The notes under the pieces were generated by a model. The model saw only the letters and a list, made by a program, of their open reading frames with translations. It was not told where the DNA came from and made no database searches. Positions 5,537 to 55,530 of a stretch of DNA of 64,000 nucleotides are shown here, one piece after another. Made by a program: the position numbers and the translations under genes. Every line of letters begins with the position of its first letter. Within the stretch, counting starts at the first letter, position 1. Source of the stretch: Marsupella aquatica (Eukaryota; Plantae; Marchantiophyta); NCBI GenBank assembly GCA_973895155.1, contig OZ316892.1:5292510-5356509 (forward strand). Reading direction: 5' to 3'.

Positions 5537-6496
5537 ATGGCCGGTAAATTGAGTGGAACAGCGGCAGCGGCATCCAGCATGCTGCTGAGCACATTGCTCC
5601 TCGTCTCGCTGAGGGCTGCCTCGGTTGGTGCCCAGCTGTGGGCAGTGACGGACTGGACTGCAGGGGCCCACGCCACGTTCTACGGAGGACAAGATGCTTC
5701 TGGGACCATGGGTGAGTTGAATATACACGTTTCATGAGCTCGATATATTTTTGGGCATCAGATCGAGCTCGATATAAGTTTTGAGACCAGATTGACTAGT
5801 TCGCTAGTTTATACAACTTGTTTTGTCCTGTAAGTGGCTGGTTCGGCTTCGACTATTGACTGATGGATTTTGTGAACCTGTGCAGGTGGGGCCTGTGGAT
5901 ATGGAAACTTGTACTCTACCGGATACGGAACACAGTCAACCGCTTTGAGCAACCCCCTGTTCGACAATGGCCTCACTTGCGGAGCGTGCTTTATGCTCCA
6001 GTGTGTGACATCTGGAAGCAGTTATTGCTACCCAGGGAAGACAATCACCGTGACTGCAACCAATGCGTGCCCTCCAGGTTCTTACGGAGGATGGTGCAAT
6101 GGCAAGCCACATTTCGATCTGTCGTATTTCATGTTCACTGAGCTTGCCCAAGCTGTTGGAGGTGTCATCCCAGTCCTGTACAAGAGGGTGTCGTGCTCCA
6201 AGCAGGGAGGAATTCGTTTCACCATCAATGGCAACCCTTGGTTCGATAATGTGTTGGTCACCAATGTGGCTGGTGATGGCACCATTCAGTCTCTATATGT
6301 CCAGGGTGATAGCGGCGGCTGGCAATCCATGTCTCAGAACTGGGGCGCGTACTGGTCATCTGCCGCAAACTTGCAGGGAAAAAGTCTATCTTTCAGGTGC
6401 ATTTCTGGAGGTGGGAAGTCTCAAGATTTCATGAATGTTGCATCGTCTAACTGGGGCTTCGGATCTACATACGAGGCGAACTATAATATGAGCTAG
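5537..6496 (+). CDS. EXPA: Alpha-expansin 1 (exons 5537-5711, 5886-6496)
   Basis: Signal peptide followed by HATFYGGQDASGTMG|GACGYGNLY joined across a GT-AG intron (5712-5885). Contains CGACF, GGWCN, HFDLS and a Trp-rich C-terminal domain (WQSMSQNWGAYW, NWGFGSTY). Stop TAG at 6494-6496. Confidence 0.95.
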
Positions 6497-21068: not shown

Positions 21069-24000
21069 CTATAATTTTTTCTGTGAGAGTTGTTTCTCAA
21101 GCAGGGGATACTTGGCCAGATTTTCTGCATCGTATCGTGCCAGGACCCTCCGTGCCTCTTCTTCAGTACCTGGAACCACTCTAAAGATTGGAGGAGTAGC
21201 CTCGTTCAACTTGTTTTCATTCACAGTGAATGTGAAATAGAAGGTGTTGGAAATCTGAGATCAACCAATTTCAAAAACCTTTGTAAAAATGATTACAATT
21301 GAGATCATCGTGCAACTCCTAACCCTTTCCTAAGATGAAACTCTTTTTCTACTGACCAACGTGGAAACGACAGTAAAATTAGTCCTCTAGGTTAAACCAA
21401 GGATTCAGAAATGGAAGAAGGTCAATTTCCAGTACCTCGCTACTTCGAAGTTCGGGTTGCGTGACATGTGCAGTCACTTCTATATGGATCAATTGTGGCT
21501 TCACCTCAGTGTACAAGACGAACGACTTGAACCGCAGCAAATCCCCAACATCTACCTGCATCAGAAAGGTGAAACCTGACGATCAAAATGACATCCGAGA
21601 TCACGCTACTTGATGCAACATATGCAGTCAGATTGTAAAACATAGAATATAATAAGATTAAGATTAAAGAAACACCCTGAGACTGGAATTCCACACAAAC
21701 GAAGTGATGAATTCTGAGCAAGCCCTATGCAAGTGCATAGAGAGGGTCTTGACAAATGTAGTACCGGTCGAAGAAAGTCAACATGGTCCACCTCCAAAAA
21801 CACAGGTAAAATACCACAAAACACATAGCAGGTTGAAAACGCAAGCTCATAGGCACGTCGCATGAGAAAGCCACCAAAAATACGTCCATGCATGTTTCGT
21901 TGTTGTGGCTGACAAATTATCGCATTCTCCTGTTTGGTATTCTTCATGAGAATCATATTCCTATCAGCAAGCGTAGGCATCTCTCTCAAAACTCGTCCTT
22001 CTTTCATCAAGTCCTTCAACCTCTGGTCGTCATGGAGAGCCTTGGCAGCCTTTGAGACTTCAGTTCCACTTGTCCTGTGCTCCTTTCTCTTTGTATCTGC
22101 AGCCCCTCCTAACAGGAAGAGCTTCTTCTCAGCCTCAGTTTCAGGTGCCAACCGGTTTATCTGAGCTGCCTTCTTCGTCATGGTATCCCTTGCCACAAAT
22201 GTGAAATTAGCAACTAGGGCCACCGCATCCTCCTCACGCTCGTCCTCTATGAAAGAAAATGCCACCAAACCCTGTAGAAGATTAAGTGCCTGGTCTCCGA
22301 GAGGTCCTACTGCACTTTAACTCGACCGTCACTAGCTAGGCCTAGTATCTCAACTTGGAAGACGAAGTCTCGAGTGTAGTCAATCAGCACACAAGATATC
22401 ATCAAAGACAAAGGTCCTGTTTATCTTACAGTTAATAGAAGCACATACAGGAGTTGAGCAATAACAAATGGAATTTGCATTGTGTTCAGAGACAATCAAA
22501 TAAAAGTCGAGCTCTGTTTATACGAAAGAAAAATTAGGCTCCAAATCATCCGAATTCCACAGTTGATCTTCACCATTCAACAGAGTTATTCAACAAGGGA
22601 GCGGAATCAAGACAGATTCCTGGCAGGATACAATTCTTGTTCAACAATCGGCAAGAATTCTCGTGGAAGACTAGAAAACTGAAATTTAGAGTAAAACTAC
22701 AATTCATTTGAAGGAGGACTCATTGTGGAATTGACACCGAATTGTTCGTGGACAAGAGTTAGAACTTTTAAAACGGAAATTACAAAGATTTCTTGTGACC
22801 CTACAACTGTGGTGAAGAACTACTGATTTTAGAAAAGGCAAAGAATTATGGGCAGTCACGAAGCCTTCAGAATGGAAGTGGTTGCCTACCAGCATGTGCA
22901 GCCTGAGTGACTTCCATCCTGATCTCCATGGAAGAGCGACCAACCCATGCCACAGCCCCGGAAATCGTGATATCTTCCGTTATACTTATAGGCTTTAAGA
23001 GACTGATTTTATCCACGGATGCTGTCACCAACATCAATGGTCTGGTTGTGTAGTCATCATCTGCACAATGCTGAGTTTCACATTCAAAGTCAAAATTTGG
23101 AGAGATAAAGGAAAATCTTCCTCGTCTATGAAGGTCTGTATTGTGCTTTTCACTTGAAGATGTCGTTACTCTTCTTTGTAAGAGTGACTTGTTCTATTAT
23201 TCAAGGCATCAAGCTGTTATGAATTGAAGGCCTTATCCCAAAAGCTTTGGGACCCTGTAATTCGATGGATATCCAATACTAGGTCCTCTGCAATTCGCTC
23301 GATGGGTTTCTGGTACTCTACAATTCAATAGGTGGAGATCGTACATATAAACATTTTAGGTCCTCCACAATTCACTATATGGGGATCTCATGGTGACAAT
23401 ATTTAGGTCCTCTGCAAGTCATTGGATGGGGATCTCACAGACACAATTTGTCCTCTACGATTCACTGGATGGAGATCTGAGATATACGTTTCAGGTCCTT
23501 ACGATTCATTGGATGATCTTATACACCAAATTTCGCCAAAACTCGGAAGCTTAAACTGCAACCCTCAATTCTCGAGGTCCTATAGAATCTACTAGACTAT
23601 CGTCAAGACAATTTGCGGGCCAGAACGCCAACATTTAAACAGCAATTCTTAACTGGTTAGGTTCCCTACAATTCACTGGATGGAAAGACATCAGGATCTC
23701 TACAGATCACTAGCTGAAGAGCTTAAAGATATAAATTTGCTCGCCAGAACTCGGATCAATCAATAAACGACCTACCACTCCTTAGGTCCTCTAGGGTTCA
23801 CTGGATGGAGACCCTCCAGACAAAATTTGCTGGCCTGAATCCGGACATTTCAACAGAGAACATGAATTGCTTTGGTCCTCTACAATTCGCTTCACTGGAT
23901 TGACATCTCATAGATATATGTTCTGCTAGCCCAGAATTCGGAGACTTAAACGGCAATTAAGTGAGACGAATATGAACAAAAGAACCAGTGAAATGTGATG

Positions 24001-24935
24001 AATTAACTTCACACCTTGACTGCAATGGTGCCGGCTAAAGCATCCAAATCCTCGAACAGCTTCCCAATTCTCACAGCCGACCACGGATTGCGGTACTGCT
24101 CCTGCAGAATCTTGTCGTTGGAGAAAGAATACAGAATGCTGGTCCGGCTCTGGGCCGGCGTCCGGGTCAGCAATTGCCTCTGAGGATGGCCATCCATAGA
24201 GAAGTCGATCTGCCTCTCGTTGATGCTCGACCTGGCGGCCCACAGAGCAGCCGTCACGGGAGAGTGGTACATGCCGGGCCACATACTCACAGGCTTGCGC
24301 TCTTCCTGGACTGCTGCGGCGTCATCCCCCTTTGCCACGGTGGACAACACGGGGATGGCATGGGCACCCTTCGCCGATGAATTCATCAGCTTCCACTGGC
24401 CTCTCTTCTCGGGACTAAGCTGTTGGCCTTTAGCTCCCGAAATTTCAGATGGGGGTTTTGTGGTCTCCTCTGAATTTACTTCTTCGGTGCTGATTGGCAC
24501 TGATGATTCCACCTGAGTTTTACAGTTCTCGGGCTTGTTCCTAGATGGTTTACTGCCTGTACTGGACGAAAAGGAGGAGATGATAAGAGAAGTCACCCAC
24601 GACGAGGACGAGAGGGGAAGAGGAGAAGAAACCCAGAAGGAAGAAGAGAGAGGAAGATTAGCAGTACACGAAAAGGAGGAGGAGAGAGGAAGATTTGCAG
24701 TACACGTCAAGGAAGAGGATGAAGAGATAGGAAGGTGAGAAGTACCCAGAATGAAGGAGGAGGACGAGAGCGAAAGATCAGAAGTGCTCGAAAATGGGGA
24801 GAAGAGTGGGAGGTGAGAAATATTTTGATACACACCGAACTGTGAAGGGTAGAAGGAGGAGACAGGGGTCGGACGGAAACAGAGAGCGCGTACTGTACAC
24901 GATGAACTGGTCTTTCTAATGATGCTCAAACTCAT
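21069..24935 (-). CDS. Acyl-CoA thioesterase, double hotdog fold, ACOT9-like, probably mitochondrial (exons 24935-24015, 23070-22890, 22246-21765, 21555-21436, 21254-21069)
   Basis: Motifs YRNPW..VRIGKLFEDLDALAGTIAVK|HC, LVTASVD, GAVAWVGRSSMEI, QPQQRNMHGRIFGGFLMRRAYELA, VDFLRP|VDVGDLL, SNTFYFTF. All junctions are GT-AG and in frame. Ser-rich presequence. Confidence 0.92.
23250..23910. repeat. Degenerate tandem repeat in thioesterase intron 1
   Basis: About 11 variants of aggtcctctacaattcactggatgggatctca, spaced roughly 45-120 bp apart. Confidence 0.8.
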
Positions 24936-26121
24936 TCTATTTTAAGAAATTGAACTGCTTCTTCTGACCCACCGAATTTCTGCTTCTTGTACTGTGCAGG
25001 CGCCACTTCTAGGAGGACGTATTCGTACCCCCTTCACCGACCACCCCCATCTGTTGCATAGCGTGACTTGTGCCAATTCTGTGTACCAATTGCCTGCTTT
25101 CAATCACCCCAACAGCTGTGCTATTCTCCATGACTTTCCTGCCGATAGAATCCAGCGCTTTGTCCGCCTTTATTCGGGTGAGAAGCGTGCCTAATAGGAA
25201 ATTAAAACTCCGGAGTGCGGCTATGCCCCAGGATTATCAATCCACACAGGATTACTGTTTGTTGATAGTGAAATGAACGAGAGATTGGACCACAGTTCGG
25301 GAATTTGATCGAGAGGGCGGATTTTCCGCTGAGTTGAGGGCCTTCTCACATAGATTTCCTGTTCATCTTTAGCACAAAATTGTCATTTGTTCAACAGTTA
25401 CAAAGTCTCAGATACAATCACCCTCGTGAAGAAGAACATGGAAAGCAGGTGTCTTTCAAGAGTTAACGACCTAAGGGGACACTGCGTCGTTGTGGCAAAC
25501 TGACAGACCTGTCCATGCAGATAATTACGTTGTTCATCTTTGGCACAAAATTTTGTCATTTCTAGTTATTTTGGCAAGTCCGCTAGTGAAACACTGTAGG
25601 AGGAGGTGATGATAGACCTCTGTCAGAGTCAGCCACGAAAGGCCCTAAGGTGGATTCCGGACCTTTAATTTGCACGTCTTTGACAGAATGTTGTCAGCTG
25701 TTTTGTTTTTAAGTAGTAATTAAAAACCTGTTTCTGGTTTAATCAATTCTCTAACACAGTCACCCAAGTAAAGGAGACGATAGAGGGATCCCTCACAAGC
25801 TTCTGAGTGTCCAAAATGAATGGACAGGAATCATGAGTAGCTACTTTATAGGCGTGTATCAGATATTATTCTGAAGTGACAGATAGCTTGAAAAGTGAGG
25901 TATTGCATAAATATATTCTACGTCCAAGTGAAGTTAGGACAAGCGACCCATAATAACATGGGCACATCCAAAGGGAACCAAAATCTTAGGGGACATGCGG
26001 GCCAACTCTAACCTCTGGCTGCGGGCAATTGTGGGGAAAGCAAAACACAGCCCAATCCCCTCAAATCCTGAAACCATTTTGCTACATCAAGAGCACCCAA
26101 CAATTTGAACAAAGAATTTAG

Positions 26122-28048
26122 TCACCAATAATCTTTACAAGAACAGTCACCATCCTGAAAGTGATGAAAGCGGTTTACATCCCTTACAATGATTGCCGTC
26201 TTCATAATCTTAGCAATCAACTTGATTGCTGTGTGACAATCACCGCACACCCTAAGATTTTTGAAAATATGAAGAGGAGTACGACGAGGTGTATTCATGA
26301 GGCCAAATACAACTGCCAGCTTCTCACTATGGTGCCACAAATGGTCCATTTTCTTCTCCTCATCTAAATCATGCAATACAAATCTCGTGTCCTGCATGTA
26401 CCCTGCCTCCACCATCTGAGCTGAGAGTCTTAGAAGTTCTGCACGAATTTCCACAATTTGAGGATGCTCACTGTCGTCCACTGTAAAAGAGTGCACCTCA
26501 CCACTCAACTCAATCCAAGAGCGCCCCCGCTGCTTCTTCACGTGCTTTTGCTGCCTCTCTTGCTTGACGTTTGCACTCTTCTCCCACTTTCCTGCAGTAG
26601 CATAAATGTTTGAGAGCAGAGTATAGCCTGCAGGATTTCCAGGGTCCAATCGCAAAATCTGTTTGGCAACCTGTTCTCCCAACTCAACGCTCCCATGAAC
26701 TCTGCAAGCCCCGAGCAAGCACATCCAGATAGTGGCATTGGGTTGGCAAGGCATTGTTTTGATCAGCTGTTCAGCTTCATGCAAACAGCCGGCTCGACCA
26801 AGGAGATCAACCACGCAGGCATAATGCTCCACTGATACTGGAATATTGTAAACTGAACTCATCATCTCAAAGAGGTGCTGCCCTTCATCGACTAGGCCCC
26901 CATGGCTACAAGCTGAGAGTAGCGAAACAAATGTGGCGGAATTCAGCTCTAGCCCTTCTTCACACATGCTTCCAAAAAGCGCAACTGCGTCCCTAGCCTT
27001 GCCATGTATGGCATATCCTCCAAGCATGGCGTTCCAAACTATAGAGTCTCGAGTTGAAACTGTTCTGAACACTGCTTCAGAATCTGCTATACTTCCACAT
27101 TTGGCATACATGTCAACAAGGCTACAAGCGACATGGACATCCGAGTCGAAACCAAGCTGAACAATCTGCTTATGAATCAAGCGGCCTTGCTCAAGGGCTG
27201 CTAAGCTAGCACAAGCATTCAATATGCCAACAAAGGTGACAGGATTGGGTTCTATGCCTTCACGATGCATCCGCTGAAATAGTTCCAAACTCTTCCGCCC
27301 CTCCCCACATTTTACATATCCCAGAATCAACGCAGTATAAGAGACAACATCGTGTGTGGACATCTCGTCGAATACTTTCTGTGCGTTTTCTATGCAACCA
27401 CACTTTGCATACATGTCGACGAGTGCATTGCTCACAAAAACATCCCCCTCGAAGCCACTCCGTATGACCTCTGCATGGATTCCTCTTCCCAATTCCAGGG
27501 ATTGTAATCCAGAACAGGCATTGAGAACTGGCACGAAAGTATACTTGTCTGCCTGGACTGTCTCTTGCTGCATTTGGTGGAAAATTTCAAGAGCCTTCTC
27601 ATATTGTCCTGCTTTGACAAATCTGGCAAGTCTTTTGTTCCATGAAAAAATGTTCAATTTGACTGTGCCTGGCGCCATTGCTGCCAGCTCTATTTCTACC
27701 CATGGCGGGTTAAGTTTGTCTACGAGCCAGAGTGATTGCTGCGTCTTTCGATGTTTGAAATCTGGATATCTCGGTTGGGCCTACAACCAGGACAACAAAT
27801 CGACCTCATGAGGATGATGTTAACAATAGGTTGAAGTAAATATGGGAACTGACAATGAAGAGTATCGCCTTGAAATTGTGCATCCGTATAAGTAAAGTGA
27901 TGAATGAAGATGGGATCTACTGCACACCTACCTTCTCAGATCTGTGATCCCACCATCGCGAAGGGTCGGAAAAGAACTCCCGCCAAAGTCTCTCAACGAC
28001 CTCTCTTCGACCTAGCGAAATCCACTCAGCTTTAATAAATCGGTCCAT
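26122..28048 (-). CDS. PLS-class PPR protein with E1-E2-DYW deaminase domain and an N-terminal OSB-type PDF motif (exons 28048-27932, 27780-26122; ~591 aa)
   Basis: ORF 27678-26122 gives (P1-L1-S1)x2-P2-L2-S2-E1-E2-DYW with HSEKLA, CGDCH and terminal DYW. The frame stays open upstream to an acceptor (ttgtag at 27786-27781). A donor AAG|gtaggt at 27932/27931 joins a 39-codon exon in phase 0. The true start could lie further upstream. Confidence 0.9.
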
Positions 28049-29879
28049 TCCTATCTTACATTCCTTTGCCAAAGCTCATGCAGGGTGAAGTCTGGCGCAC
28101 ATTGATCCTCGCGCCCCATGTTGACCTCGTGGGAATTGTGCTGAAGACTATTATCTCTAGATTCACATTATTTTCCTGATCCTCTCGAGTTTTCCAAACC
28201 TCTCATTTGTAAAGACAATGCTCGCTGAGAATCTTTTTGTGGTCATCTCCAAACTTGCAGCTGTCCAGAACTCAACTCCCCATGAGTAGGTCCTAGGTGC
28301 AGTTTGGAAATTCGATTGAACGATGCATCTAGGCTCGAACGCAAAGACAAAGGGTACACCTGCTGATTCTCCGTATGCAGTAACCACCCGTTCACACGTT
28401 CCATTTGTAATTAGATTCATTAGAAATGCTCTCGCCTAAGACGTGTGTGCCCCGTGCGATGTCACCACATTTTAATGAGACCGATGGTTCAAAAAAAAGT
28501 ATGCGGACTCTCAGGTTAATTGCAAATCTCGGTGAGTCTGAATTACCAATGGGCATGAAACCATCGGCGCAGAACGACCGAGCAAACTACAGATGATGCC
28601 CACTATTTATAGACCTCTGTTAAACCATTGAGCAAATGATTCGAGGTAGCCAACTTGATTCACAGCGAAGACGTACTTATCCAACTGCTTTGCTAACCCT
28701 AATAAGTAGAATCGAATTGTGGGCCGAGTGAGTGGCAGAATATCGGAACTCACTCAGAAAGTTCAATCGACTTGCAACTCCGTTGAGTTTTCGAATTGTC
28801 ATCACATATTTCACACGCAGGACCACCTGAAGACCAATGACCCAGATCGAGTAATGTTCTCCCTTAGGCCACTGGCGTCACACCGTTCCAGGGCACCTCG
28901 CTCCTCGCGACAAACGAGCATAGTCTTGGCTGCTACCATCAAAGAAAGAAATCAAATCCGGACCCGTCCCAACATGGCAATTGTTTCAAAGTTGTGGGCT
29001 CCACTGACGAACTTGAAACAATCGTCCTGTTGTTTGTTAAGACCTTTGATTCCCCACACGGCAAGCGAACTCCCAAGGTTTTGACACCCTGGGAATCAGC
29101 TTGAACCTCTGCGGCAAACCTAATCTGCGTTGTTCTCAAAAGCTTTGGTTATTTTACAAATAGTTTCCACTTCTCTGTAACCCGTCGACTGGCTGGGATC
29201 CAAATCAAGCAATCGGACCAGGAACGAAGCATGGGGTTTAAAGGTCTAACCAGTACACCTAATTCGTGAGTAACATTATGGAGCGTATAAAGCAACAGAA
29301 GCTGCCAACAATAAGTGACAAACAGGCGTACTACATAAACCCTAAGAGAAGCCAAAGATGAATCATCAGTCCATATGCGTGTGAAGTTGAGAATAGATAG
29401 TTTTAGCTGTTCTTACTACTCTCTCCAGGAGAGAGTCAAACATTGAGATCTGAGTTGCAAAAAGTTATTACACTCGTGGTCCCTGAGGTGAAAACTACTT
29501 TGCGTTCCCAGTGGGATGCAGAAAATATTGTTCTAACAGAGTTTAAGGAATCTTGTTTGAATCCCCAGCGGGAACCCACTATGCCAAATCACCAAACTTG
29601 ACATCTAATTGATTACTTCTCATGGACTGTCGCAAAGCTCGTGAGGACTCGGTGGCAACAAATCTGATAACCACTTGAAACAAAATTACGCATGGACACA
29701 AAAGAACTGAGCAGAAGGTTGTTGTTTCCAACCTTTAATCCAGTCGAGCATGAATCCTCAACCCCCTATCTACCAAGGATCAGGTTGATGCATTAGGGTC
29801 AAGGCTCGGTGTGCTGTGGTCATTATGGGATATAGATAACGCTATGTGCCGCCTCTAAGGATAGTGTTGCAGGACTTAT

Positions 29880-30165: not shown

Positions 30166-30639
30166 TCCGAGTCAGCCAATACACCTTTGGCAACCATTTC
30201 AATTATATGTGACATCCTCTTCTTTGTAAGTGTCAAATGCTTTACATTTATTATTACAAGCAAAAATAACTATAATGATTGCCAGAGGCCTCTAGATATA
30301 GAAATATCCACAACGGAGGACAAGCCTAAGTGCCTGCCTTTAAACTTTTCTGTTCATCCAAGATTGCTGCGAGGTGAAAGCCCTCTTGTATAATTGCTGA
30401 ATACAACATGACCTTTTCGAGAATATTGCTCCGCAATCGTGAAATCTCCATTTCACCCATGCCTCTAGAATAATCCCTATACACTGCTGATTGAAAGAAA
30501 TAGGGCTTTTTGATCAGATGAGGACGTAAACACACGTTGCCACAAAACTGTTAGCATCCAAGTTTCCTGATCTCCCATATTAGTGCCTGAAGGGAAGCTG
30601 TGTGCATCGGGTTTATCTACGATTGTCCGCTACGAGAAG

Positions 30640-31591
30640 TCAAAGTTGGGCATTCTGATTCCCTGTCGAAGTCTCCACACGCAGAGGGAGGACACTAACT
30701 ACAGGAGGAGGCGCAGATGCGGCTGTTTCGACTGCTTTGTTCATCCTGAACATCTGTAGAGGAAGAAAAACACAAACCAAGATAATCTTAGCATGAGTCC
30801 GATCTTTGATATAGAAAACGGCGAAGTCCATAACCTGAAAAGTTGCAGCGGCTTGTTAGGGTTGAGAATGTCAAGTAAGTCCATATAATCATCTAGAAAT
30901 CAGCGCCTTTATTCATGAAGCATGTGCAAGTCCGAAGAAGAGGGGAGAATAGAGATGATTGCTCATTCAGACTAGGGTTTCTGGGACATAGCTGTCTGTT
31001 CGAATTAAAGTGGCAACGGCCACAGCAAAAACAACGTAAAAGAAATGTTTATGCCACAAAGACGAATTAATTTTTCATAAGGTCAAATTGGGGTATAGGC
31101 ATTGCATAAATCCCACCGTCAAAGTCTAGTCTCGCATTCGGCCAAACAGCAGCAAATCAAGAAAGTTTCCAAATCAATTGATACCGGACACAGCAATTTC
31201 AAGAAACAGAGTTGTGAAATAAACACAAGAGTACAAAATCAAATCCAATTCTAACGTCAGATCAATGTTCACACCGTAAACCAATCCACGGCTTGAAGCC
31301 TAAACCCTGATTCCCTCAAACCCCAAAAAATTCTTTAGTTTGCAGAAATCACACCCAAATTCCGAGCCAACAGCAGATCCTCATGACATTTACCTTCTTC
31401 ACGGTCTTCTGTAAGCAGCTCTTGTGTTCATCGTAAGAAGCATTCACAAATTCGTCGATGTGATTGACCAGATCTTTCACAAACCCCTCATTCATATCCG
31501 ACTTCTTCTTTCTGCAGGAAGCCGGAACCGCAACCGTAGGACTTCCCGTTCCTACGGTCTCTTCCTTGCGAGCTTCTGCATTCTCGCTCAT
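30640..31591 (-). CDS. Small conserved plant protein of unknown function (exons 31591-31394, 30753-30640; 103 aa)
   Basis: SCRKKK...F.KDL..HIDEF.NAS.DEHK.C.QKT.KK|MF.M.K...VLPL matches my recollection of a family of short uncharacterised land-plant proteins. Phase-0 GT-AG intron 31393-30754. Confidence 0.8.
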
Positions 31592-33877
31592 CGCAGACAC
31601 CACCAAATCAACGAATTCGGCAACAATTGAAGGGCGATTTCGATCGACGAAAAACCTTTCGCTTAATCTTCGAATCTCTGCACCTTTGAGTTTTCTTCGA
31701 GAGTTCCTTTCCTGGCTGACGGGGTTCCAACGGCGAGCCTCATTCGGTGACGGCGCCGTTCGTGGATTGATCGAAGGGCTTGAGGAGTGGCATGTGTCGG
31801 GGAGGGAAGTCAGGGACCGTCGATTCTCATGGTGTTTTGGCTCTGTTTAGAGCATCGAACGGAGAGAAAAGATGCCGTCGACACCACGTTAGCCCTTGGT
31901 AACGTTCTGGTGCTGTCAACTGTAACTGTGGTAACGTACTCTAGTTGTTTCGTAGACCCTACGAAATGAGAAAACGAGCAATAATTAAATTTTATACAGT
32001 GAACTATAGCTTAATAGAGTACACTCCATAAGCGCTTACCCTTGACTAGTGCATGCCAGCTTGTTCTTCCCATTTTTCTACACAAGATAAGCATTTTTTC
32101 AGCCTTTTTTCTAAGCGCACACTCAGGGCTAAAATCATTGTGCACACTCAGGGCTAAAATCATTTCATTCAACAACAACTTTATAAGCTCTTACCATTGA
32201 TAAATGTTTGTATGCACTTATATGTAAATGCATAAACTCCTGAAATCTCATTTACAGATAAATGTATGCCCATTCTTAGTAGAGTATAGAATGCACATAA
32301 GGAGTGTGGGCACAGAATTAGGGCACTGATATGAGGTATGAGGCTGACTACTCACTGACAAAGGGGTCCATAGCCCATACACATTTAACAAAGGAATCCA
32401 AATGAGGCACACTTATCTATCAGAGCACTTATTATGGGATGTGCGCTTAAGGCACACAACATCTGGTTTAGTGCATGCCAGATCCATCTTCCCCAGAGCA
32501 TGCACTTAGCGAGAGTTCAAAGTACAGCTTTTTCCAAACCTGTTTCCCAAACTGATGGGATTGCTGAGAGGGTGAATTTTGAACATCTTTAATGACAATG
32601 TACTTTAAAATTGAATTTTAAAACAAATAATACTACAGAGTGCCAAAAAGCAAAAGGTGTCTGGTATCAAACTGCCAAAACACAAAAGACATCCAACCAG
32701 GAAACATGATCTCAAAAACTATCCACCCAATCAAGTCCAGGCAACCAAAATGCTGAAACGGCCATCAAAAAGGAGCAAACAAAGTACAAAGAATGGAAAT
32801 CAAAAGAAATATCCATCCAAAGAGGACAAAAACACTAAGCTACACCAAAAAAAAGAGGCAAATACAACCCTAAAATCCCAGGAAGAAGGAGAAAGGGAAA
32901 AAGCAGTACCCCTTCAACAAGAGATATACTTGATGGACCCCTAGATTGGAAAGTCTTATTTGATGGACCCCATGAGGTCCCCTGAGGTTTGGATACATCT
33001 ATCAATCGTCTAGATCACTCGTAGGGTTAAGTAACACTTTGCATTGGGGGGGGGTCCATCACATATATCTTTCCCATTTCACTAGTAGATAACTAATGGT
33101 CCACATCTAGTGTGATAACTAAATCAGCAAGTGAGACAGGGGCCCAGCATATTTTGTAGGGTTTTTTATTTTTAGCCAGTGTGACGAATGTTTGCTTCTT
33201 TGAGGGAGGAGATTCTAAGAATATTCTCTGTCAAATTTTATTAAATTGAATTGTGACCGTCAGATATCCCTAGATTTAAGGAGATCCATTAGATTCTGGC
33301 TAATGGGTCAATGATTTGGTGGAAGAGTGGCTAATGGTGTCAGAAAAATGTAGCGAATCTTAACCAAAAGTGGCGAAAGTTTTTTGGGGAGGTGAAATTT
33401 GGCTAAAATTCGCACTTAAAAAATACGCTGACAGGGGGTCCTACTTTGGGGGGTGGGGGAGAGGGAGGAGCCAACAATACTATACTACCCCTCCTACTTT
33501 AGCTAGGGGCCCCCATTGGGTGACCCATGGGCCACTTCACCCAACCTCTCCAATCCGACACGTTGCAGGAGCAGGTACTCTGGGTTGCTTGGCCCGGACC
33601 ATGATTGTGCCCCTATGCAAAAAGCCCGGCAGGGCCTGGCCCCTGGGCCACTCAGGGCCAGCAAGAGGCAACCCACCAAACGGTCACCAAGAAGATGACC
33701 GCCTGCAGCCAGTCGCCGGCCCCCTCGGCCGGTTGGCCCTCTCTAGTACAAGAACACGAAGAACATCGCAACAATGTGCACGAATTCCTCAAAATCGTTC
33801 CTTTTGAAATGTGATCTTCAATCCTCGGAATCGGAAGCAAGAAATCGGAGCTCTGTGCGATCCAATTCTGAACCGCG

Positions 33878-36435
33878 ATGGCTGCTCTCAGCATTGTTGG
33901 GTCCTCTTCGCCAGTGCTGCTGCGAATTTCTGCTCCTCTCGATGTCGGAGCTGCTTCATCTTCCTCCTCGTCCTCGTTCTCGTCCTCTGCTGCTGCTGCT
34001 GCTGCTCAATTGAATCGCAATCTTGCTCATCTCAAGTCGAACCAGAGAATTGCTTCTCTCGATCGGAGCCCTGGGTTGTTCTCTGGTGTCACTGCGCAAT
34101 TGAATGGAAATCTTGATCATCGCCCGATTAAGCAGAGAGGAGGAGGAGGAGCAGTAGGAGGAGGAGGAGCAGAGCCGAAATGGCAGCAGAATGCAATTTT
34201 GGCAGAGGAGTCGGTGCTGGAGCGGTCCGATGATGCGGAGGCGGGAGCTTCGACGTCGCAAGGGGTGATCGATGCGGAATCGCAGCTCTTCGTGCAGACC
34301 TACGCGCGGGCGCCACTGGTGTTCGTCAAAGGGCAGGGATGCTGGCTGACGGACGCCGAAGGGAAGGAGTACCTGGACATGACTGCCGGCATCGCCGTGA
34401 ACGCGCTCGGTCATGGCGACCCGGCGTGGGTGAAGGCTGTGACAGAGCAAGCGACAACCCTAACGCATGTTAGCAACCTCTACCACACGGTGCCTCAGGT
34501 TTCTGCTCTTCTTCGGCTCTCGTGGTTTCTGAGGGTTGGTTTGTTTTTTGTGCACATTTTTCTGGACGCTCACACTCAGACTCTAGATCACGCTTCGAAT
34601 TTGAGACCGATGTATTATCTGTCACAATTTGAGTCATTTCTTTTCAATTTCTTGTGGTGGCTGTTTCTTTCTTTGAAGACTCTAGGTAAGTGCAGGGGAT
34701 GAAGTGGAGTCCATGCGTGATGATTCCTAAGTTTAGTAATTAAACCAAAACACTTCATGTTCGCTTTTTGTTTAGAAAGGGCGCTATTGAATTTGTGGAA
34801 AATCAAACACCTCGCCTACGCATCAGCTCACAGTTTGGTGCTAGTGTTTCAAGTGAAGACCAAGGCCTTTTAATTCAAATTTGCAGTCACTGAGTCAAAT
34901 GCTTTTTTATTGTATTTCAGGTGAAATTGGCTGAGCGGCTTGTCAACTCGTCGTTTGCTGATCGAGTGTTTTTCGCCAACTCTGGAACGGAGGCGAACGA
35001 GGCTGCGATCAAATTCTCCAGGAAGTATCAACGCAAAGTGCATGGTTCGGAAACCGAGAAAACGGAGCTCATAGCTTTTAACAATGGGTTCCACGGACGA
35101 ACCTTGGGGGCGTTGGCACTGACCAGCAAGATTCAATATCGCGCTCCCTTTGAGCCTCTCATGCCAGGTTTGCGACCCTTTGAGTCCGCTGTCCACCCTC
35201 TCTGGCGAGAAATTCTGTAGTGCTCGTAAATTTCTTCATCTGAATTGTTTATCGTTCTGAGAACTTTTGGGTGGTATGTCATAGGTTTCTCGTACCTATA
35301 CTTAGGTCTCTTGCTTCTAGTACATTCTGTCTTGGCTCCAGTTTAGTGCTTGTACGTAATGCGCAGTGGATTTTTGCTGCTGCATATTTCTTGTCGTTCT
35401 TTTAGCAAGCGCTTCTTCCTTCCTGTACGTTGTATCCCTTGTTCAATTTTGAAGTTCTCTGGCTTGTACATTCAGTTCAGTAATGCTCTTAACCTTTTTT
35501 TTCTACTTCTTTTCCCAACTTTTCCTTCTACGGCTTTCCCCTGACTTCTCGGTGGCTCTCTTGCCTTCTTGTATGTCTTGTCCCACACTCCTTGTTGGGT
35601 TTCTGTGGATTCCAAGTGAATCCCGTATTCTTTGAGACAAATTCCCTTACCTTTTGGTACTTGCTATCCCTTCCCCATTGCGACTCTAAATAAATCAATT
35701 CAATGCAATGCAATTGCAGGTGTTACCTTCATCGAGTTCGGGGATCTGGAAGCAGTAGCGGAGGTAGTCAAGAAGAGTGGGAATGTAGCAGCAATTTTTG
35801 TGGAGCCTGTGCAAGGGGAAGGTGGAGTTTACCCTGCTGTGGCATCATTTCTCAAAGGTCTGAGAGATCTGTGCGATGAGACGGGAACCCTGTTGGTTTT
35901 CGACGAGATACAGTGTGGATTAGCAAGGACAGGAACATTATGGGCTCATGAACCGTATGGAGTGGAGCCCGACATCATGACCCTGGCCAAACCTCTGGCA
36001 GGTGGCTTGCCCATCGGAGCCGTGCTGGTGACGAATGCCGTTGCCTCAGCTATCGCTTATGGTGACCATGGCAGCACATTCGCTGGTGGTCCCTTGGTGT
36101 GCGCTGCAGCTCTTGCTGTCATGGATCGTTTGCAAGAGACTGGGTTTCTCGAGAGTGTGGAGGCGAAGGGAAAGTATGTCGTCAAGAGATTGACTGAGGA
36201 ATTGATCGGGAAGAATCAACATGTAAAGGAAATTCGTGGAGCAGGGCTTTTAGTTGGTATTCAACTGGATGTATCTGCTAATCCTGTGGTGCTGGCAGCA
36301 AGAGAGGAAGGCATGATTTTGATCACTGCAGGGAAAGGAGATGTCATCCGCTTGGCTCCCCCTCTTGTTATCTCCGAGAAAGAGCTGGATCATGCTGTCA
36401 ACATTCTAGTAAAGTGCCTAGATGGATTGTCATGA
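33878..36435 (+). CDS. argD: Acetylornithine aminotransferase, class III PLP enzyme, plastid-type transit peptide (exons 33878-34498, 34921-35167, 35720-36435; 527 aa)
   Basis: [61 protein letters not shown] and the PLP lysine in [12 protein letters not shown]. In-frame GT-AG introns. Confidence 0.95.
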
Positions 36436-48986: not shown

Positions 48987-50890
48987 AGTGGTATTAGAGC
49001 ATGCCTGGGAGGTGACAAGGTTTTTTCGTGACAGGTTTTTTCCAGCGTTCATTGTTGATGGTACATTCAGGGTTTCGTCGCATGAAACTCGAATGTGTGT
49101 GGCTGTGAGGATAGGTTAGTGAGAGGGCTTTCTAATGGTGGTTAGAACTTGCTGATCGGTATCCGTGGTGCGGAGGAATGGAAGTTTGCGTCGTTCAGGG
49201 TTTATTCATGTTCGACGGTATTTTGGGGGAGAGACCAGAGTTTGCATTTTTCAACGGTGTGAGTTGTGCGGTGCTCGGGAGATCGCACATTATAGCTCAA
49301 GTTGAAGGTTGAAGCGAGCTGGTCATTTCGGTAGCTGAGTTGCTGCCGAGTTGTTACCGAGTGCGTCGTGACGAGTGAAGGAGGCGTTCAGGTTTTTTCA
49401 CAAGCTATGGAGCTTGTTCTCATCTGAACCGGGTTTCTCTTCGTGACGTCCGACTCGGTGGAAGAAACGGGAAGTGCTACGGCTCAACGGTTTGATCACG
49501 GCGAGGCGGTCGTTTTGAGTCCGGGATTGGCACTTGACGTGGAGTGAACGCGTCGCGGCGGAATTTTTTTACTCTGTTGGAGCTGCGGACTGTGCCGGTG
49601 CAATTCGGCAACATTTCCTATCGGCGGCGTTCACTTTTCTCATTGGTAATGGCGGCGGCAAGGTGAGTAAATCGGGCAAATTTGTTTTTGAGCAAAATTT
49701 TTGGTTCAAGGGGGTCCTTTGGTGTGTGTATACACACCTGTTTCCCCCTCCCGGCCCCTCGTCCTTAACCTCGTACCCGGCCCCCCGTTACCCCGCTTGT
49801 TTCCCCCCCTCCCCCTCCCGCACCCCAATTTTTTCCTTTTATGCCTCCCTCCGCAGCGCCGGCCGGCGCTTATTTAGCCGCTCGCCGGCTGCTGCTCCCC
49901 ACCCCATTACGCTCCCCCCTTCGCCAGCCTTACGAAGCCGGCCACCCCCTCGGAAAGGGCATTCAGCCGGGGCACCTCCCTCGCGAAGGGCTGCCAGCGC
50001 GCGCCCGCCCCTTTAGCGCCCCATTTCGTGACAAAATACGCGGCTGCGTATTCAGCCGATTTGACCCCCGCGCCCTCCTGTACCCCACGTGAGTGCCCTG
50101 TATACTCCCTGGCCCGCCTCGCATCGCCTATACGCGATGCGGATGCACCTTTGTTTTTTATACTTGTATTTAGTGATAAGGGGCTTTAGCACCCCCTTAA
50201 GGCCCTATTTTAAGCTTTTTCTTTCTCCTTTGCTTTTCCTCTTATGCCAGGACCTGCCGCCCTCCGTTTTAACCGCTTGGACAGGGGGAACGACCCCCTG
50301 TGAGCCTTGTCGGACTATGCAGGAATATTCCTGAAAAAAATAGAGAGCTATTTCTGGCCGTCCGACAAAGCTTTCGTCCGTCAAACGGTAACTTTTTTGG
50401 TTCTTTTTCGGTGAGGACGTTGCCACTGGAGTTAGCAATGTGGCGCACCGATCACCTCGCAATTCCGACGACGGGTTGTATTGGGTATTTCGGTTATTCT
50501 CCAAGGTGGTCATAACGGGGGAGTTTCCCAAGGTTTTACCCACCCCAACCAAAATTTGAATAACTTTTCCGTCGAATTTTGATTTTGATTTTGGCTTTCA
50601 GTATTGGACTCCTAGCTTCGTGGGCTACACGGTGGTGTTGAGTTTTGAGTTTTGTGAGAAGTTTCAAAAAAGACGTTTTTTCGTGATTGTTTCATATGAG
50701 TGACTCAGAGGATACTGGAAGAATTGGCGTCGGTGGAGCTTCAGGATTGCGATGATCAGACGCTGGGTCTGAGGAGGAGTTGCTACCGTTTGAGGAGGAA
50801 CTTGTAACACCGGTACGATCACCGGTGCGACATGCAGTGGAGGAAGCTGTATTACTACCAAAGTTGTCGGTAGTTGGGAAGAAGAGGGAG

Positions 50891-53800
50891 ATGGCTAGAT
50901 TTGGAGGAGTGAAGTTTGAGGTGGAGAAGTACGATGGTCGTACTGATTACTTGCTGTGGGAGAAGCAAGTGAAGGGTGTTCTTCGGGCCATGGGCTTAGC
51001 TCATCTGCTTTCATCGCGAGAGCAGTATGATGGAGAGGAGGAGATTTCTGTGAGACAGTGGAGACAGGAGCAGGTGATTGCTGTCAACGCAGTGATGCTA
51101 TATCTCAAGCCGCACATCATCAAGCAGCTGGATGATTATGTGGATTGCATGTCACTGTTCAAGGCTCTTAAAGAGAAGTACTACCGGGAAGATGCGTCAG
51201 ACCGGCTATACAAGAAGTCTCTCTTGATGAGCCTCAGACTCAAGGAAGGGAGCAAGATGCAGGATCACCTGGATGAGTTTGACAGTCTAGTGGTGGATCT
51301 GTCAAACCTGGGAAAAGGAGTTGAAGATGAGGATAAGGCCTTGCTTCTGCTAAGCTCCTTACCGCCGTCATATCAGGGCTTGAAACAGGTGCTCTTGTAC
51401 AGAGATCTGAAGTCCATTTCGTATAATGAGGTGGTGAGCTCTTTACTATCTGATGATGCTCAGAAGAAGCTGGGTCAATCACAGACAGCATCTTCTTCTG
51501 GCACTACGCTCAATGTGAACAGGGGAAGAGCAGCGCAGCGCACGAATGGATAGACAGGTTTAGATCTACATCACGGGGGAGATCTAAATCCAGAGGGAAA
51601 TCACAAGAGAGAAAGCCTCTTGCATGTTGGAATTGTGGCAAGCCTGGCCACATGAAAAGGGATTGTCGAGTAAAGGTCCCTACTGCATTTGCTAACGCTG
51701 CATCAAGCTCGCATGAGGTAGATTTACTTGATGATGATGATATATTGTGATGCCAAGGATATGCTCTCAACGTAGTGTCAAATCCAGGTAGTGATGACTG
51801 GATTCTAGATAGTGCATGTACTTTTCACATTTGCTTTAGGAGAGATTTTTTCAGTTCTTACACGGTTTCCAACGGGTCAGTGTTGATGGGAAATGGAATC
51901 CCATGTCAAGTTGTTGGACTTGGATCTGTAAGATTTTAGATGTTTGATGGTGTTGTAAGAACGTTAAGGAATGTGAGACATATTCCCAGCATGATGAAAA
52001 ATCTCATTTCACTTGGAGTTTTAGAGGCAAATGGCCATCAGTGGAGTTCTGCTAATGGTGTCCTTCAGGTTTCAACTGGTACTAAAGTTGTATTGAAGGG
52101 AAAGAGACATAGCAATCTATACGTTTTGGAGGGCAGTATAGTTTGTGATGAAGCCAATATAACCTTATCTCATGAGGAGACAGCCCGGCTATGGCACTTT
52201 CGTTTGGGCCACATGAGTGAAAAAGGTTTGGTTATTCTTCAGAAGAAAGGATTACTTTCTAATTTGCAATCTTGTAAGTTGGAATTTGGTGAGTACTGTG
52301 TGCTTGGGAAGCAGCACAGGAAACCCTTCGGAGTTGGAACTCACACCAGCAAGGAGGTACTTGAGTATGTACATAGTGATGTGTGGGGTCCAGCCCCTAC
52401 TCCCTCACATTCTGGACGGTTATACTATGTCACGTTCATAGACGATTACTCAAGGTATGTGTGGATCTACTTTTTACACAGTAAGTTTGATGTTTTTGCC
52501 ACTTTTAAGGAGTGGAAAGCCCAAGTTGAGAATCAGACTGATAACAAGGTGAGATATCTTTTATCAGATAACGGTGGTGAATACAGTTCCGGGGAATTTG
52601 GAACGTATTGTAAGGAGCAGGGGATTACCCGCCATCTCACAACAAGTTATACTCCTCAGCAGAATGGTGTTTCTGAGAGACTCAACCGAACACTATTGGA
52701 CCGCTCGAGGAGTATGTTGAGTCAATCATGCTTACCACATGAGTTTTGGGCTGAAGCTGTCAACACTACAGCTTATTTGGTAAATTTTTCTCCATCCAGT
52801 TCTATTGGATTCAAGACGCCATTTGAAATGAGGTACGGGCGTCCAGCAGATTACTCACATCTGAGGATTTTTGGATGTGATGCTTATGTGCTTACACCTT
52901 CCCAGCTTCGATCCAAGATGGAGTCCAAGTCAAAGAAGTGCATTTTCCTTGGCTATCAGAAAGGTGTGAAGGGTTATAGGTTATGGGATCCAGTAACTTG
53001 TAAACTAATTGTTAGTAGAGATGTGTCCTTTAATGAATCCAGATCATCAAAGGAGGGGAAGAGTTCTCAGGACTCCCATACTGACAAGGGGAAATCTCCC
53101 ATCCCGGACCGGGTTGAGGGGAAGATTAGTCATGATGTTGTTCATGACAGGAGAGATGGAGAAGCTCCGGGCTTGGAGCTGGTTCCTGTGATGGAACAAG
53201 AGGAGAAAATTATTGTTGGGGTACCTCAAATTCAACCAGCAGTAGTAACAGATCAGCCTGAGTCATCTACTAGAAGAACTTCCAGTCATTCTAGTACTAG
53301 AGCTCCTACCAGGTATGGTCAATGGGCAGACTCATCTAAGCTAGATGATATTGACATTGCACCTGATGATGATGACATGGCTTTGATCTTGGAAGAAGGA
53401 GAACCTTCTTCATACAATGAGGCTTGTTCTTTAGAGCAGAAGCATGAGTGAAATGCAACAATGCAGAGGGAGTTGCGATCTTTGAGTGACAACAAGACTT
53501 GGGAGCTGGTGGAGCTTCCAAGAGGTCAGCAAGTGGTGGACAGCAAGTGAATTTACAAGTTGAAGGATAGTCCTTCAGAGGGTGGAGATAAGATCTACAA
53601 GGCAAGGCTTGTTGCCAAAGGATTCACTCAGGAGAAAGGAGTGGATTACAATAAGGTCTTTTCACCGGTGGCTAAGTATTCCACAATTCGGATCTTGTGT
53701 CAACTTGTTGTGTTTTTTAATCTGGCGATGGATCAGATGGATGTTGTTACAGCTTTTCTCTATGGCAACTTGGAAGAGTTGCTCTTCATGAGACAGCCAC

Positions 53801-54972
53801 TAGGCTTTATGAAGAAGGGCCAAGAGAACTTAGTTTGCAGATTGCTCAAGTCCTTGTATGGATTGAAGCAGTCTCCTAGATAGTGGAACAAACGGTTTGA
53901 TGATGTCATGCTTGCTCAAGGTTTTACAAGGATGGTGTATGATCCTTGTGTGTATACAAAATCAGTCAAGAATAATGTATTTGGTTTCATCATTCTGGTG
54001 ATCTATGTGGATGACATGCTGATTGTGACTAAAAATCAATCTGAGGTTGACAGTCTCAAGGCAAAATTGAGTGTTGAATTTAGGATGAAGGATCTTGGTA
54101 AGGCCAAGAGGATCTTAGGGATGGAGATTTTTAGGAACTCTGATACTGGACAGTTGTGCTTGAGTCAAGGCCAATATGCGAGGAAAGTACTTGCACGATT
54201 CAACATGGAGAACTGTAAGCCAGTGAGTATTCCTTTAGCTTCACATTTCAAGTTATCATCGGCTTTCTCTCCTACAGATGCTGTGGAGAAAGGTTTGATA
54301 GCTAAGATTCCTTATGAGAATGTAGTAGGCAGTCTGATGTATTTGATGACTTGTACTAGGCCTGACTTGGCCCTAGCGATGGGCAAGGTTAGCAGATTCG
54401 TGTCAAATCCAGGGAAGGTACATTGGGAAGCTGTGAAATGGATTCTCAGGTATCTCAAGGGTACACAGGACTATGGATTACTATTTGATAACAAATCAGA
54501 TAGAACGTTAGTTGGCTATGTAGATTCTGACTATGGAGGCTGTCTGGATACAAGGAGGTCTACAACTGGGTTTGTATACACTCTTGGAGGAGGATGTATC
54601 AGTTGGAAATCTACCTTGCAAAAGTGCATATCTCAGTCTACTACAGAAGCAGAGTATGTTGCAGCAGCAGAAGCAGCAAAGGAAGCAATTTGGTTGGACA
54701 AGTTGATCGCAGAGATGGGTTTAGAGCATGGCAAAATGACTCTAAACTGTGATAATCAGAGTGCTCTTCACTTGGCTGCTAACCAAGTGATGGATAGCAG
54801 GGTGAAGCACATTGATATCAGGTACCATTTTATCAGGCAAGCAGTGTCTGATAAAACTTTTGAGCTAGTCAAGATTGATGGAAAGCTCAATCCCGCTGAT
54901 GCCTTTACCAAAGTGATTCCTTTGGAGAGTTTCTCAAGACACCGTGCTACTTTGCAGGTTTTGCAGTTGTAG
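50891..54972 (+). pseudogene. Copia gag-pol polyprotein, disrupted
   Basis: KFEVEKYDG gag start, CWNCGKPGHMKRDC zinc knuckle, WILDSA protease, LWHFRLGH/VHSDVWGP/SDNGGEY/NGVSER integrase, YVDD RT, RNase H (VDSD, TEAEY). Frameshift near 51550 and in-frame stops at 51748, 53449, 53548 and 53881. Confidence 0.95.
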
Positions 54973-55183: not shown

Positions 55184-55530
55184 TGTTAGATATTGCTCTA
55201 GTCTTGTGATTCATGAGCTAACCACAGTTAGTCTAACTCGGGTTAGGACTTAGCTAATGTTAGCGGTAGTGGTGGTGTGCATATAGCTAGGGCTGATGCC
55301 AGACCCTGGTGGAACTTAGGCTCATTGTTACGGAGCTAGTTGAGAGATAGGGAGAGCTTGTGCTGTGGATGATGCTTGGTATGGCCGGTCGGCCTAGAGT
55401 GCAGTAAAGCTCTTGTGTGTTCCCGTGGACGTAGCCTCATGTGGAGGTGAACCACGTATCTCTTTGTGTCGACCATTGTGCGTTGGATGGTTCATGGGCT
55501 TGCCGTTACGAATGCCGTCTATGCTCAACA
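55184..55530 (+). repeat. Copia 3' LTR (347 bp)
   Basis: Runs TGTTAGATA...CTCAACA, preceded by the PPT and followed by TSD CGAGG. Confidence 0.95.

What the first reader, a model, noticed from the sequence alone, without database searches (positions are those of the whole stretch)
26122..28048. DYW-deaminase PPR protein fused to an OSB-type PDF ssDNA-binding motif, hidden by splicing
Seen: the PPR frame extends 34 codons upstream of the ORF-track start to an AG acceptor. A phase-0 intron (27931-27781) joins a 39-codon exon, giving MDRFIKAEWISLGRREVVERLWREFFSDPSRWWDHRSEK|AQPRYPDFKHRKTQQSLWLVDKLNPPWVEIELAAMAPG... The motif spans ~27988-27697 and leads straight into the first P repeat. Established: W..FF..P..WWD.R..K..P..PDFKH..T...LW....P.WV is the PDF motif of plant Organellar Single-stranded DNA-Binding (OSB) proteins, which binds ssDNA and acts in organelle genome recombination control. 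PLS-E1-E2-DYW proteins are C-to-U organellar RNA editing enzymes, and the zinc/catalytic motifs HSE and CGDC are intact here. Inference: this is a chimeric editing factor. The PDF module could tether a short 9-repeat PPR deaminase to nucleoids or R-loops for co-transcriptional editing, add non-specific nucleic-acid affinity, or direct deamination to ssDNA. I know of no functional description of this architecture, but similar unannotated proteins may exist in bryophyte proteomes.
Basis: partly seen in the sequence, partly recalled or inferred. Interest (0 to 1): 0.92.

Follow-up and report, generated by a model that had tools for sequence, protein, structure and literature searches.

The report
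RNA editor carrying DNA-binding PDF module
This gene, likely from a liverwort, encodes a predicted organelle RNA-editing enzyme whose front end carries the small 'PDF' module known from organelle single-stranded-DNA-binding proteins; the same pairing occurs in many liverwort, peat-moss and clubmoss proteins, where the module likely helps the enzyme grip single-stranded targets.

Summary
The GT-AG phase-0 intron 27931-27781 is skipped in a probably-RNA contig of a related species. That contig stops matching at 28011, just after an AG. An upstream exon (28802-28754) matches the Calypogeia fissa orthologue, so the gene likely has three exons and a short basic presequence. The spliced motif scores 65 bits against a profile built only from OSB-named proteins (shuffles at most 7.8). 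It precedes nine PLS repeats, E1-E2 and a DYW domain with HxE/CxxC intact. This is a family, not a one-off: 113 of 113 listed homologues carry PDF before PPR (47 Sphagnum, 46 Diphasiastrum, 4 Calypogeia, 16 unnamed); 43 keep a catalytic DYW. Ten literature searches found no description, but this scan already noted the architecture twice in peat-moss genomes. Best reading: a C-to-U RNA editing factor with a built-in, sequence-independent single-strand-binding module on the 5' side of its target (inferred). DNA deamination is unlikely: the module sits at the far end from the deaminase and is kept in many proteins lacking one. Nothing about binding or activity was tested.

The parts
28754..28802 (-). 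Likely coding exon 1 (ATG 28802; 16 codons + 1 nt): short basic, acid-free peptide, a candidate organelle presequence
   Evidence: In-frame ATG, GTGAGT donor at 28753, peptide aligns with N-terminus of C. fissa P0003 including an identical ASRLNFL. The joint is inferred, not seen in RNA. A further upstream exon is not excluded (AG at about 28827).
28012..28753 (-).
   Evidence: RNA-like contig stops matching at 28011; 1-nt insertion at 28031 and 15-nt deletion at 28321 in a close relative; splice sites
27932..28011 (-). Exon 2 (80 nt): first half of the PDF motif (W..FF.DP..WWD.R..K)
   Evidence: 25.2 bits on the OSB-only profile alone; 22 of 26 residues identical to C. fissa
27781..27931 (-). 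Intron 2 (151 nt, phase 0, GT-AG) inside the PDF motif, after the conserved Lys
   Evidence: Skipped in X8 contig 18 and in an X9 joint; same position and phase, 141-156 nt, in loci L066, L070, L074, L075, L076
27682..27780 (-). Second half of the PDF motif (YPDFKH...LW....P.WV), start of exon 3
   Evidence: 30.5 bits alone, 65.2 bits spliced, on the OSB-only profile; no Pfam family exists for it
27652..27681 (-). Short linker between PDF and the first P repeat, fixed in length in the Calypogeia/Sphagnum-type proteins
26737..27651 (-). Nine PLS repeats: P1-L1-S1-P1-L1-S1-P2-L2-S2; 5th/last residues ND, VD, ND, TN, VD, CD, NN, VS, AN
   Evidence: Pfam PPR; dissection by hand-set anchors, all nine residue pairs identical in C. 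fissa P0003
26530..26736 (-). E1 and E2 motifs
   Evidence: PF20431 E=1.2e-16
26122..26403 (-). DYW cytidine deaminase domain with HSE (26331), CGDC (26247), terminal DYW and stop
   Evidence: PF14432 E=5.1e-41, full length

Best explanation
This is a nuclear gene, likely of a Calypogeia-like liverwort, for a predicted organellar C-to-U RNA editing factor (nine PLS repeats, E1-E2, intact DYW motifs) that carries an OSB-type PDF motif in front of its first repeat, where it likely serves as a built-in, sequence-independent grip on single-stranded nucleic acid just 5' of the site that the repeats read. Shown: exon 2-3 splicing in relatives, the domain order, homology of the motif to OSB PDF domains, and a large family with this order. 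Inferred: import into an organelle (probably the mitochondrion) by the short basic exon-1 peptide; base-specific RNA reading by the repeats and deamination of a C downstream by DYW, as in known DYW factors; and the role of PDF. PPR arrays bind RNA with their N-terminus at the 5' end (recalled), so a domain fixed to the first repeat would meet the RNA upstream of the binding site, raising affinity or keeping the target unpaired. That is a job done by separate helper proteins in seed plants, and MORF helpers are restricted to seed plants (PMC13386178). The fusion is likely old (shared by a liverwort, peat mosses and a clubmoss) and was multiplied, partly by retroposition.
For: Motif: OSB-only profile (91 motifs from 29 proteins named OSB by a source) gives 65.2 bits, shuffles at most 7.8. 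The positions near-invariant in OSBs (W, P, W, D, R, K, P, D, F, K, L, W, P, W) are 93-100% conserved in 30 fused motifs, so the aromatic and basic residues were kept. Editing part: full PF14432 and PF20431; model of P0003 matches a PPR-DYW:RNA crystal structure, 9kfx, E 8e-45, TM 0.76; all nine code-residue pairs identical to the C. fissa orthologue at 496 of 603 identity. PDF is predicted as its own small alpha/beta domain, pLDDT about 77-89 in P0003 and 82-92 in P0183. Family: 113 of 113 hits have PDF before PPR; 535 of 601 matched metagenome stretches encode a relative. Selection: pooled dN/dS 0.14 in PDF against 0.40 in the first repeats over 20 distinct loci (biased low because loci were ranked by PDF likeness). 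Geometry: about 38 of 70 PDF+PPR proteins, by eye, share the same short linker, with 19 residues from the last PDF Trp to the first repeat's Trp position in the 30 that I picked for having it. PDF of AtOSB1 alone suffices for ssDNA binding (PMC6963530, passage citing Zaegel 2006).
Against: No binding or activity data exist here. PDF is reported to bind ssDNA (PMC6963530, PMC13393729); I found nothing showing that it binds RNA, and the original OSB1 paper could not be read. 32 of 70 PDF+PPR proteins, 29 of them from Diphasiastrum, have a longer linker, mostly Gly/Ser-rich, and often 2-3 PDF copies, which fits a flexible tether better than a rigid extension. Single Physcomitrium DYW proteins edit in E. 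coli unaided (PMC6397227, abstract start) and the Physcomitrium PPR review has no hit for PDF, so the module is not needed for editing as such. The PG box (recalled motif) reads RG here and in C. fissa. The presequence is only about 19 residues and was judged by composition. Many intronless copies have early stops, so family counts include pseudogenes.
Confidence: 0.45

Rival explanations
1. PDF keeps its OSB role and binds ssDNA: it tethers the RNA editing factor to nucleoids, transcription bubbles or R-loops, so that editing is co-transcriptional. The substrate is still RNA.
For: The only reported ligand of PDF is ssDNA (PMC6963530, PMC13393729). Conserved OSB residues are retained. Diphasiastrum members have 2-3 copies on longer linkers, like group III OSBs. 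Works equally for proteins with and without DYW.
Against: A fixed-length linker kept across liverwort, moss and clubmoss suggests a set geometry with the first repeat rather than a loose tether. OSB2 binds as a tetramer; one PDF on a monomer may bind weakly (inference).
Confidence: 0.22
2. PDF was co-opted as a structural N-terminal cap or protein-interaction module that stabilises PLS arrays or dimerises E-class with DYW-class members (a MORF-like helper role), with no nucleic-acid contact.
For: Fixed linker and fused-specific conserved positions (FF.DPSQW, YPDF, ELAAM) could form an interface with the first repeat. 60 of 113 members lack DYW and would need a partner. MORFs are restricted to seed plants.
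Against: The OSB-conserved Arg, Lys and Trp positions are kept at 93-100%, though some may be structural. Contacts between PDF and repeat 1 could not be read from the model (no coordinates given).
Confidence: 0.18
3. PDF is a passenger: a founder PPR captured the 5' end or a PDF exon of an OSB gene, with its promoter and targeting peptide, and the motif spread with the expanding family without a role of its own.
For: Many intronless copies in genomic contigs (54 of 80 loci have the two motif halves 57 nt apart), many with early stops; PPR expansions in mosses and lycophytes are attributed to retroposition (PMC13386178, discussion). Not seen in Physcomitrium or seed plants among listed hits.
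Against: dN/dS 0.14 (biased); PDF halves are as conserved as the repeats between orthologues (22/26 and 30/36 against 256/305); near-invariant core kept across three plant lineages.
Confidence: 0.1
4. The protein deaminates C in organellar single-stranded DNA, PDF supplying DNA affinity and the repeats supplying sequence choice.
For: Designer P-type PPRs bind ssDNA by the same code (PMC11094755, PMC9508816 passages; PDB 5orq). Bacterial DYW-like deaminases act on ssDNA (search listing).
Against: PDF is at the far end from DYW; more than half of the listed members lack DYW; code residues unchanged between orthologues fit a standing RNA target, whereas a fixed C-to-T change in DNA would remove the target (inference). 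and one search listed no paper showing a plant PPR-DYW editing DNA.
Confidence: 0.05

Closest known systems
PLS-class DYW-subgroup PPR editing factors (e.g. Physcomitrium PPR56/PPR65, Arabidopsis OTP86; synthetic PPR-DYW in PDB 9kfx)
   Same: P1-L1-S1 triplets ending in P2-L2-S2, E1, E2, DYW with HxE(x)nCxxC and terminal DYW.
   Different: An extra folded PDF domain before the first repeat; PG box reads RG; listed extra domains of Physcomitrium PPRs are RRM, LAGLIDADG, SMR, NYN, CBS, SAP, not PDF (PMC9459714, passages).
[quoted passage not shown]
   Same: The PDF motif (65 bits on an OSB-only profile); organelle targeting likely.
   Different: No OB-fold; PDF is N-terminal rather than C-terminal; fused to a sequence-reading array and a deaminase. 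The 2026 OSB survey (PMC13393729) kept only proteins with both PDF and OB-fold and never mentions PPR.
PPR proteins fused to editing-helper domains (RRM-PPR, RRM-DYW, MORF-P fusions; PMC13386178)
   Same: A general nucleic-acid-binding or helper domain joined to a PPR protein.
   Different: Those fusions involve RRM, MORF or zinc-finger domains and mostly P-type repeats; the main text has no hit for OSB or PDF. Its supplement could not be read.

Membership tests
PLS-DYW PPR editing factor | PLS triplets ending in P2-L2-S2 | tested here: met
   35/35/31, 35/35/31, 35/36/32 residue repeats; Pfam PPR hits
PLS-DYW PPR editing factor | E1 and E2 motifs | tested here: met
   PF20431 1-63/63, E=1.2e-16
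PLS-DYW PPR editing factor | DYW domain with HxE(x)nCxxC and terminal DYW | tested here: met
   PF14432 1-93/93; HSE at 26331, CGDC at 26247; motif definition from PMC7611903 passages
PLS-DYW PPR editing factor | Canonical PG box at the start of the extended DYW domain (motif recalled) | tested here: inconclusive
   Reads RG.SWIE in the window and in C. fissa P0003; effect unknown
PLS-DYW PPR editing factor | N-terminal organelle targeting peptide | tested here: inconclusive
   Exon-1 peptide is basic and acid-free; P0003 has 5 R/K and 0 D/E in 24 residues. No predictor or localisation available.
PLS-DYW PPR editing factor | Site-specific C-to-U editing of an organelle RNA | not testable with these tools
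   No organelle genome, editome or assay available
OSB-type PDF motif | About 50-residue motif with conserved Pro-Asp-Phe and flanking Trp residues, homologous to OSB C-terminal repeats | tested here: met
   65.2 bits, profile positions 4-56; reverse search retrieves OSB1/2/3-named proteins
OSB-type PDF motif | Binds ssDNA | not testable with these tools
   Needs EMSA; no solved PDF structure found
OSB protein family | Central OB-fold-like (SSB) domain | tested here: not met
   No PF00436 hit in the exon-3 or exon-2 peptides or in P0003; only about 20 residues precede PDF
OSB protein family | PDF domain(s) at the C-terminus | tested here: not met
   PDF is N-terminal, before the repeats, here and in 113 of 113 homologues
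OSB protein family | Intron position shared with OSB genes | not tested
   The metagenome scan used patterns of the fused type and returned no OSB loci that I identified

The most novel reading that the evidence does not exclude
An old, large and undescribed subfamily of RNA editing factors in non-seed plants is physically tied to organelle DNA through an OSB-derived ssDNA-binding module, so that editing happens at nucleoids or transcription bubbles, and the same enzyme may also reach exposed ssDNA. That would link genome maintenance to RNA editing and supply a natural, all-protein, programmable deaminase with a DNA anchor.
Probability: 0.25. Interest if true: 0.87.

Novelty: new variant of a known kind. 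Interest (0 to 1): 0.63.

Why it matters
PDF has been treated as the hallmark of OSB genome-stability proteins. Here it heads more than a hundred database PPR proteins of Sphagnum, Diphasiastrum and Calypogeia, unseen because Pfam has no model for it and introns often split it. It offers a candidate answer to what assists PLS editing factors in plants without MORF proteins, makes nucleoid-coupled editing directly testable with a deletion, and gives engineers of PPR-DYW editors a natural accessory module to try. The compact 9-repeat member here is a good one for E. coli or in vitro assays.

Tried and rejected
No whole genome was held for the window, so paralogues in this organism were not counted. 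No RNA holder was listed on record; X8 and X9 are 'RNA?' guesses from other organisms. X8 contig 23 lies on 28640-28774, across the proposed donor into intron 1 (25 differences, 2 gaps); it may be unspliced RNA, DNA or an alternative 5' form and is unexplained. Pfam has no family for the motif (0 families for the window pieces; only chance hits for 4 of 9 alignment members). PDB sequence search gave 2 chance hits. Fold searches with the PDF model gave no match: Foldseek best E 3.5, VIA-align best Z 3.0 among 48,161 chains; this does not show a new fold. The ESM Atlas gave no usable hit. The first tree was unfinished and a faulty pattern dropped several fused proteins (P0010, P0011, P0012, P0015, P0022 among them), so I rely on the second, itself a quick tree on 60 columns with no one-clade test; a single origin is neither shown nor excluded, and P0146's three motifs fell apart from the rest. 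In one search, 21 of 80 loci failed my pattern pair and were not classified. Target prediction by the PPR code was not done: no organelle genome was available. Absence from Physcomitrium, Marchantia, hornworts and seed plants is only 'not among listed hits' (120 of 1268; 150 of 1136; 113 of 132 candidates) and is weak. Zaegel 2006 was not held.

Full report
What was checked. The minus strand holds an open frame 27780-26122 of 552 residues with PPR, E and full-length DYW hits. The 151-nt stretch 27931-27781 begins GTAGGT, ends TTGTAG and falls between codons. Of nine public runs that hold part of the region, four were laid. In X8, which the tool only guesses to be RNA and which comes from another organism, one 1872-nt contig covers 26124-27779 and 27931-28011 at consecutive record positions, so it lacks exactly this intron. 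X9 has a joint with the same net skip. Five metagenome loci of relatives have a 141-156-nt GT-AG intron at the same codon. The intron is therefore real, though shown in relatives and not in the window's own organism.

Correction of the gene model. A close relative (X3, X4) has a one-base insertion at 28031. The best database relative, an annotated Calypogeia fissa protein (P0003, 600 aa), starts with a different peptide, and that peptide is encoded in the window at 28802-28754, ending at a GTGAGT donor in the right phase. The three-exon model gives 595 residues, 496 of 603 aligned positions identical to P0003. The source is likely a Calypogeia or near relative.

The motif. A profile of nine fused motifs retrieved 1268 proteins, the listed 120 being OSB-named or OSB-like proteins and 42 PPR proteins; the unfiltered search of cluster representatives gave 1136 hits, many with an SSB/OB fold. 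In the reverse test, a profile from 91 motifs of 29 OSB-named proteins scored the window's spliced motif 65.2 bits against at most 7.8 for 200 shuffles. The positions near-invariant in OSBs are 93-100% conserved in 30 fused motifs. AlphaFold models show a small helix-strands-helix domain ahead of the repeats with no solved relative found. The rest of the model matches a PPR-DYW:RNA crystal structure.

The family. A search with the PDF and first-repeat region of P0003 listed 113 proteins, all with PPR domains: 47 Sphagnum, 46 Diphasiastrum, 4 Calypogeia, 16 without an organism name (counted by hand). All 113 score at least 25 bits on the OSB-only profile with PDF before the repeats; 53 have DYW homology and 43 the HxE..CxxC motif. 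One Adiantum protein has two PDF copies before repeats (P0102). Two types appear: a single PDF on a short linker of fixed length (Calypogeia, Sphagnum, some Diphasiastrum; about 38 of 70 by eye) and 1-3 copies on longer linkers (32 of 70, mostly Diphasiastrum). In a quick tree of 90 motifs, 11 fused motifs from all three genera group at SH-aLRT 98, and 27 of 30 fused motifs lie in one 29-row group at 92; with 60 columns this suggests an old shared origin but does not prove one. In metagenomes 535 of 601 matched stretches encode a relative; 54 of the best 80 lack the intron and many have early stops, in line with retroposition-driven PPR expansion (PMC13386178, discussion read in full). Pooled dN/dS was 0.14 for PDF and 0.40 for the first repeats in 20 distinct loci, a figure biased by how the loci were ranked.

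How it most likely works. The editing half is ordinary and intact, apart from RG in place of the recalled PG box, and all nine code-residue pairs are the same in C. fissa, as expected for a factor with a standing RNA target. PDF sits at the end of the array that meets the 5' side of the RNA (recalled), far from DYW. I put 0.45 on a built-in, sequence-independent single-strand grip that raises affinity or keeps the target open, 0.22 on an ssDNA tether to nucleoids, 0.18 on a cap or protein-contact role, 0.10 on a passenger and 0.05 on DNA deamination. None of these was tested; the only reported ligand of PDF is ssDNA (PMC6963530 and PMC13393729, passages).

Comparison with what is known. It is a member of the PLS-DYW family by every sequence feature that could be tested firmly, and is not an OSB (no OB fold, PDF at the N-terminus). 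Literature: ten searches. Those pairing PDF or OSB with PPR or DYW gave one review that treats them apart (PMC6963530, passages) or nothing. The 2026 OSB survey (PMC13393729; abstract, outline, passages) required both PDF and OB fold and has no hit for PPR. The 2026 survey of editing factors (PMC13386178; passages and discussion) has no hit for OSB or PDF; its supplement could not be read and may bear on this. The Physcomitrium PPR review (PMC9459714, passages) has no hit for PDF. Also seen as passages: PMC6627324, PMC6865856, PMC9508816, PMC11094755, PMC7611903. Zaegel 2006 was not held, and subscription papers such as the 1KP PPR survey (recalled) were not searchable, so 'undescribed' holds for this library only. 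This scan noted the same architecture twice before in peat-moss genomes (e1-7304186, e1-7304346); I read those after my own tests and they are not independent support.

Verdict. Observation partly confirmed (start codon corrected), interpretation partly supported. New variant of a known kind: an apparently undescribed, large PDF-PLS(-DYW) subfamily of non-seed plants, with this gene as a compact, intact member. Interest 0.63.

Noticed in passing
window 21606-24941 (-): Multi-exon gene directly downstream; by eye an acyl-CoA thioesterase-like protein (label recalled; no Pfam hit on the two pieces scanned).
   Followed up: no
window about 30197-31591 (-): Small conserved-looking gene upstream; an X8 contig ends in a poly(A)-like run at 30197, which bounds the PDF-PPR gene's 5' region. 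No Pfam hit.
   Followed up: partly
window 33872-36435 (+): Class-III aminotransferase gene with a transit-peptide-like N-terminus (PF00202), probably acetylornithine aminotransferase (label recalled).
   Followed up: no
window 50756-54972 (+) and 55394-57436 (-): A copia-type LTR retrotransposon (gag, integrase, RVT_2) facing a second element with zinc knuckle, aspartyl protease and RVT_1, both in several frames.
   Followed up: no
window 5876-6496 (+) and 61523-62056 (-): An expansin exon and a 2-hydroxyacid dehydrogenase exon.
   Followed up: no
window 28640-28774: X8 contig 23 and some X9 depth cover the end of exon 1 and the first 114 nt of intron 1: possible intron retention, alternative donor or conserved intronic element.
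   Followed up: no
proteins P0026-P0031, P0177, P0236 and others (Diphasiastrum); P0102 (Adiantum); P0146 (unnamed): A second type with 1-3 tandem PDF copies and a longer linker, most without DYW (10 of 46 Diphasiastrum hits have one). Some DYW domains read HTE, HGE, HFE or HRE instead of HSE.
   Followed up: partly
loci L001-L080: 54 of 80 loci lack the intron inside PDF, several on contigs over 40 kb, many with early stops: likely retrocopies and pseudogenes.
   Followed up: partly
protein P0144 (Welwitschia), P0023, P0024: Proteins with 3 to 13 PDF copies and no Pfam OB-fold hit; possibly PDF-only proteins.
   Followed up: no
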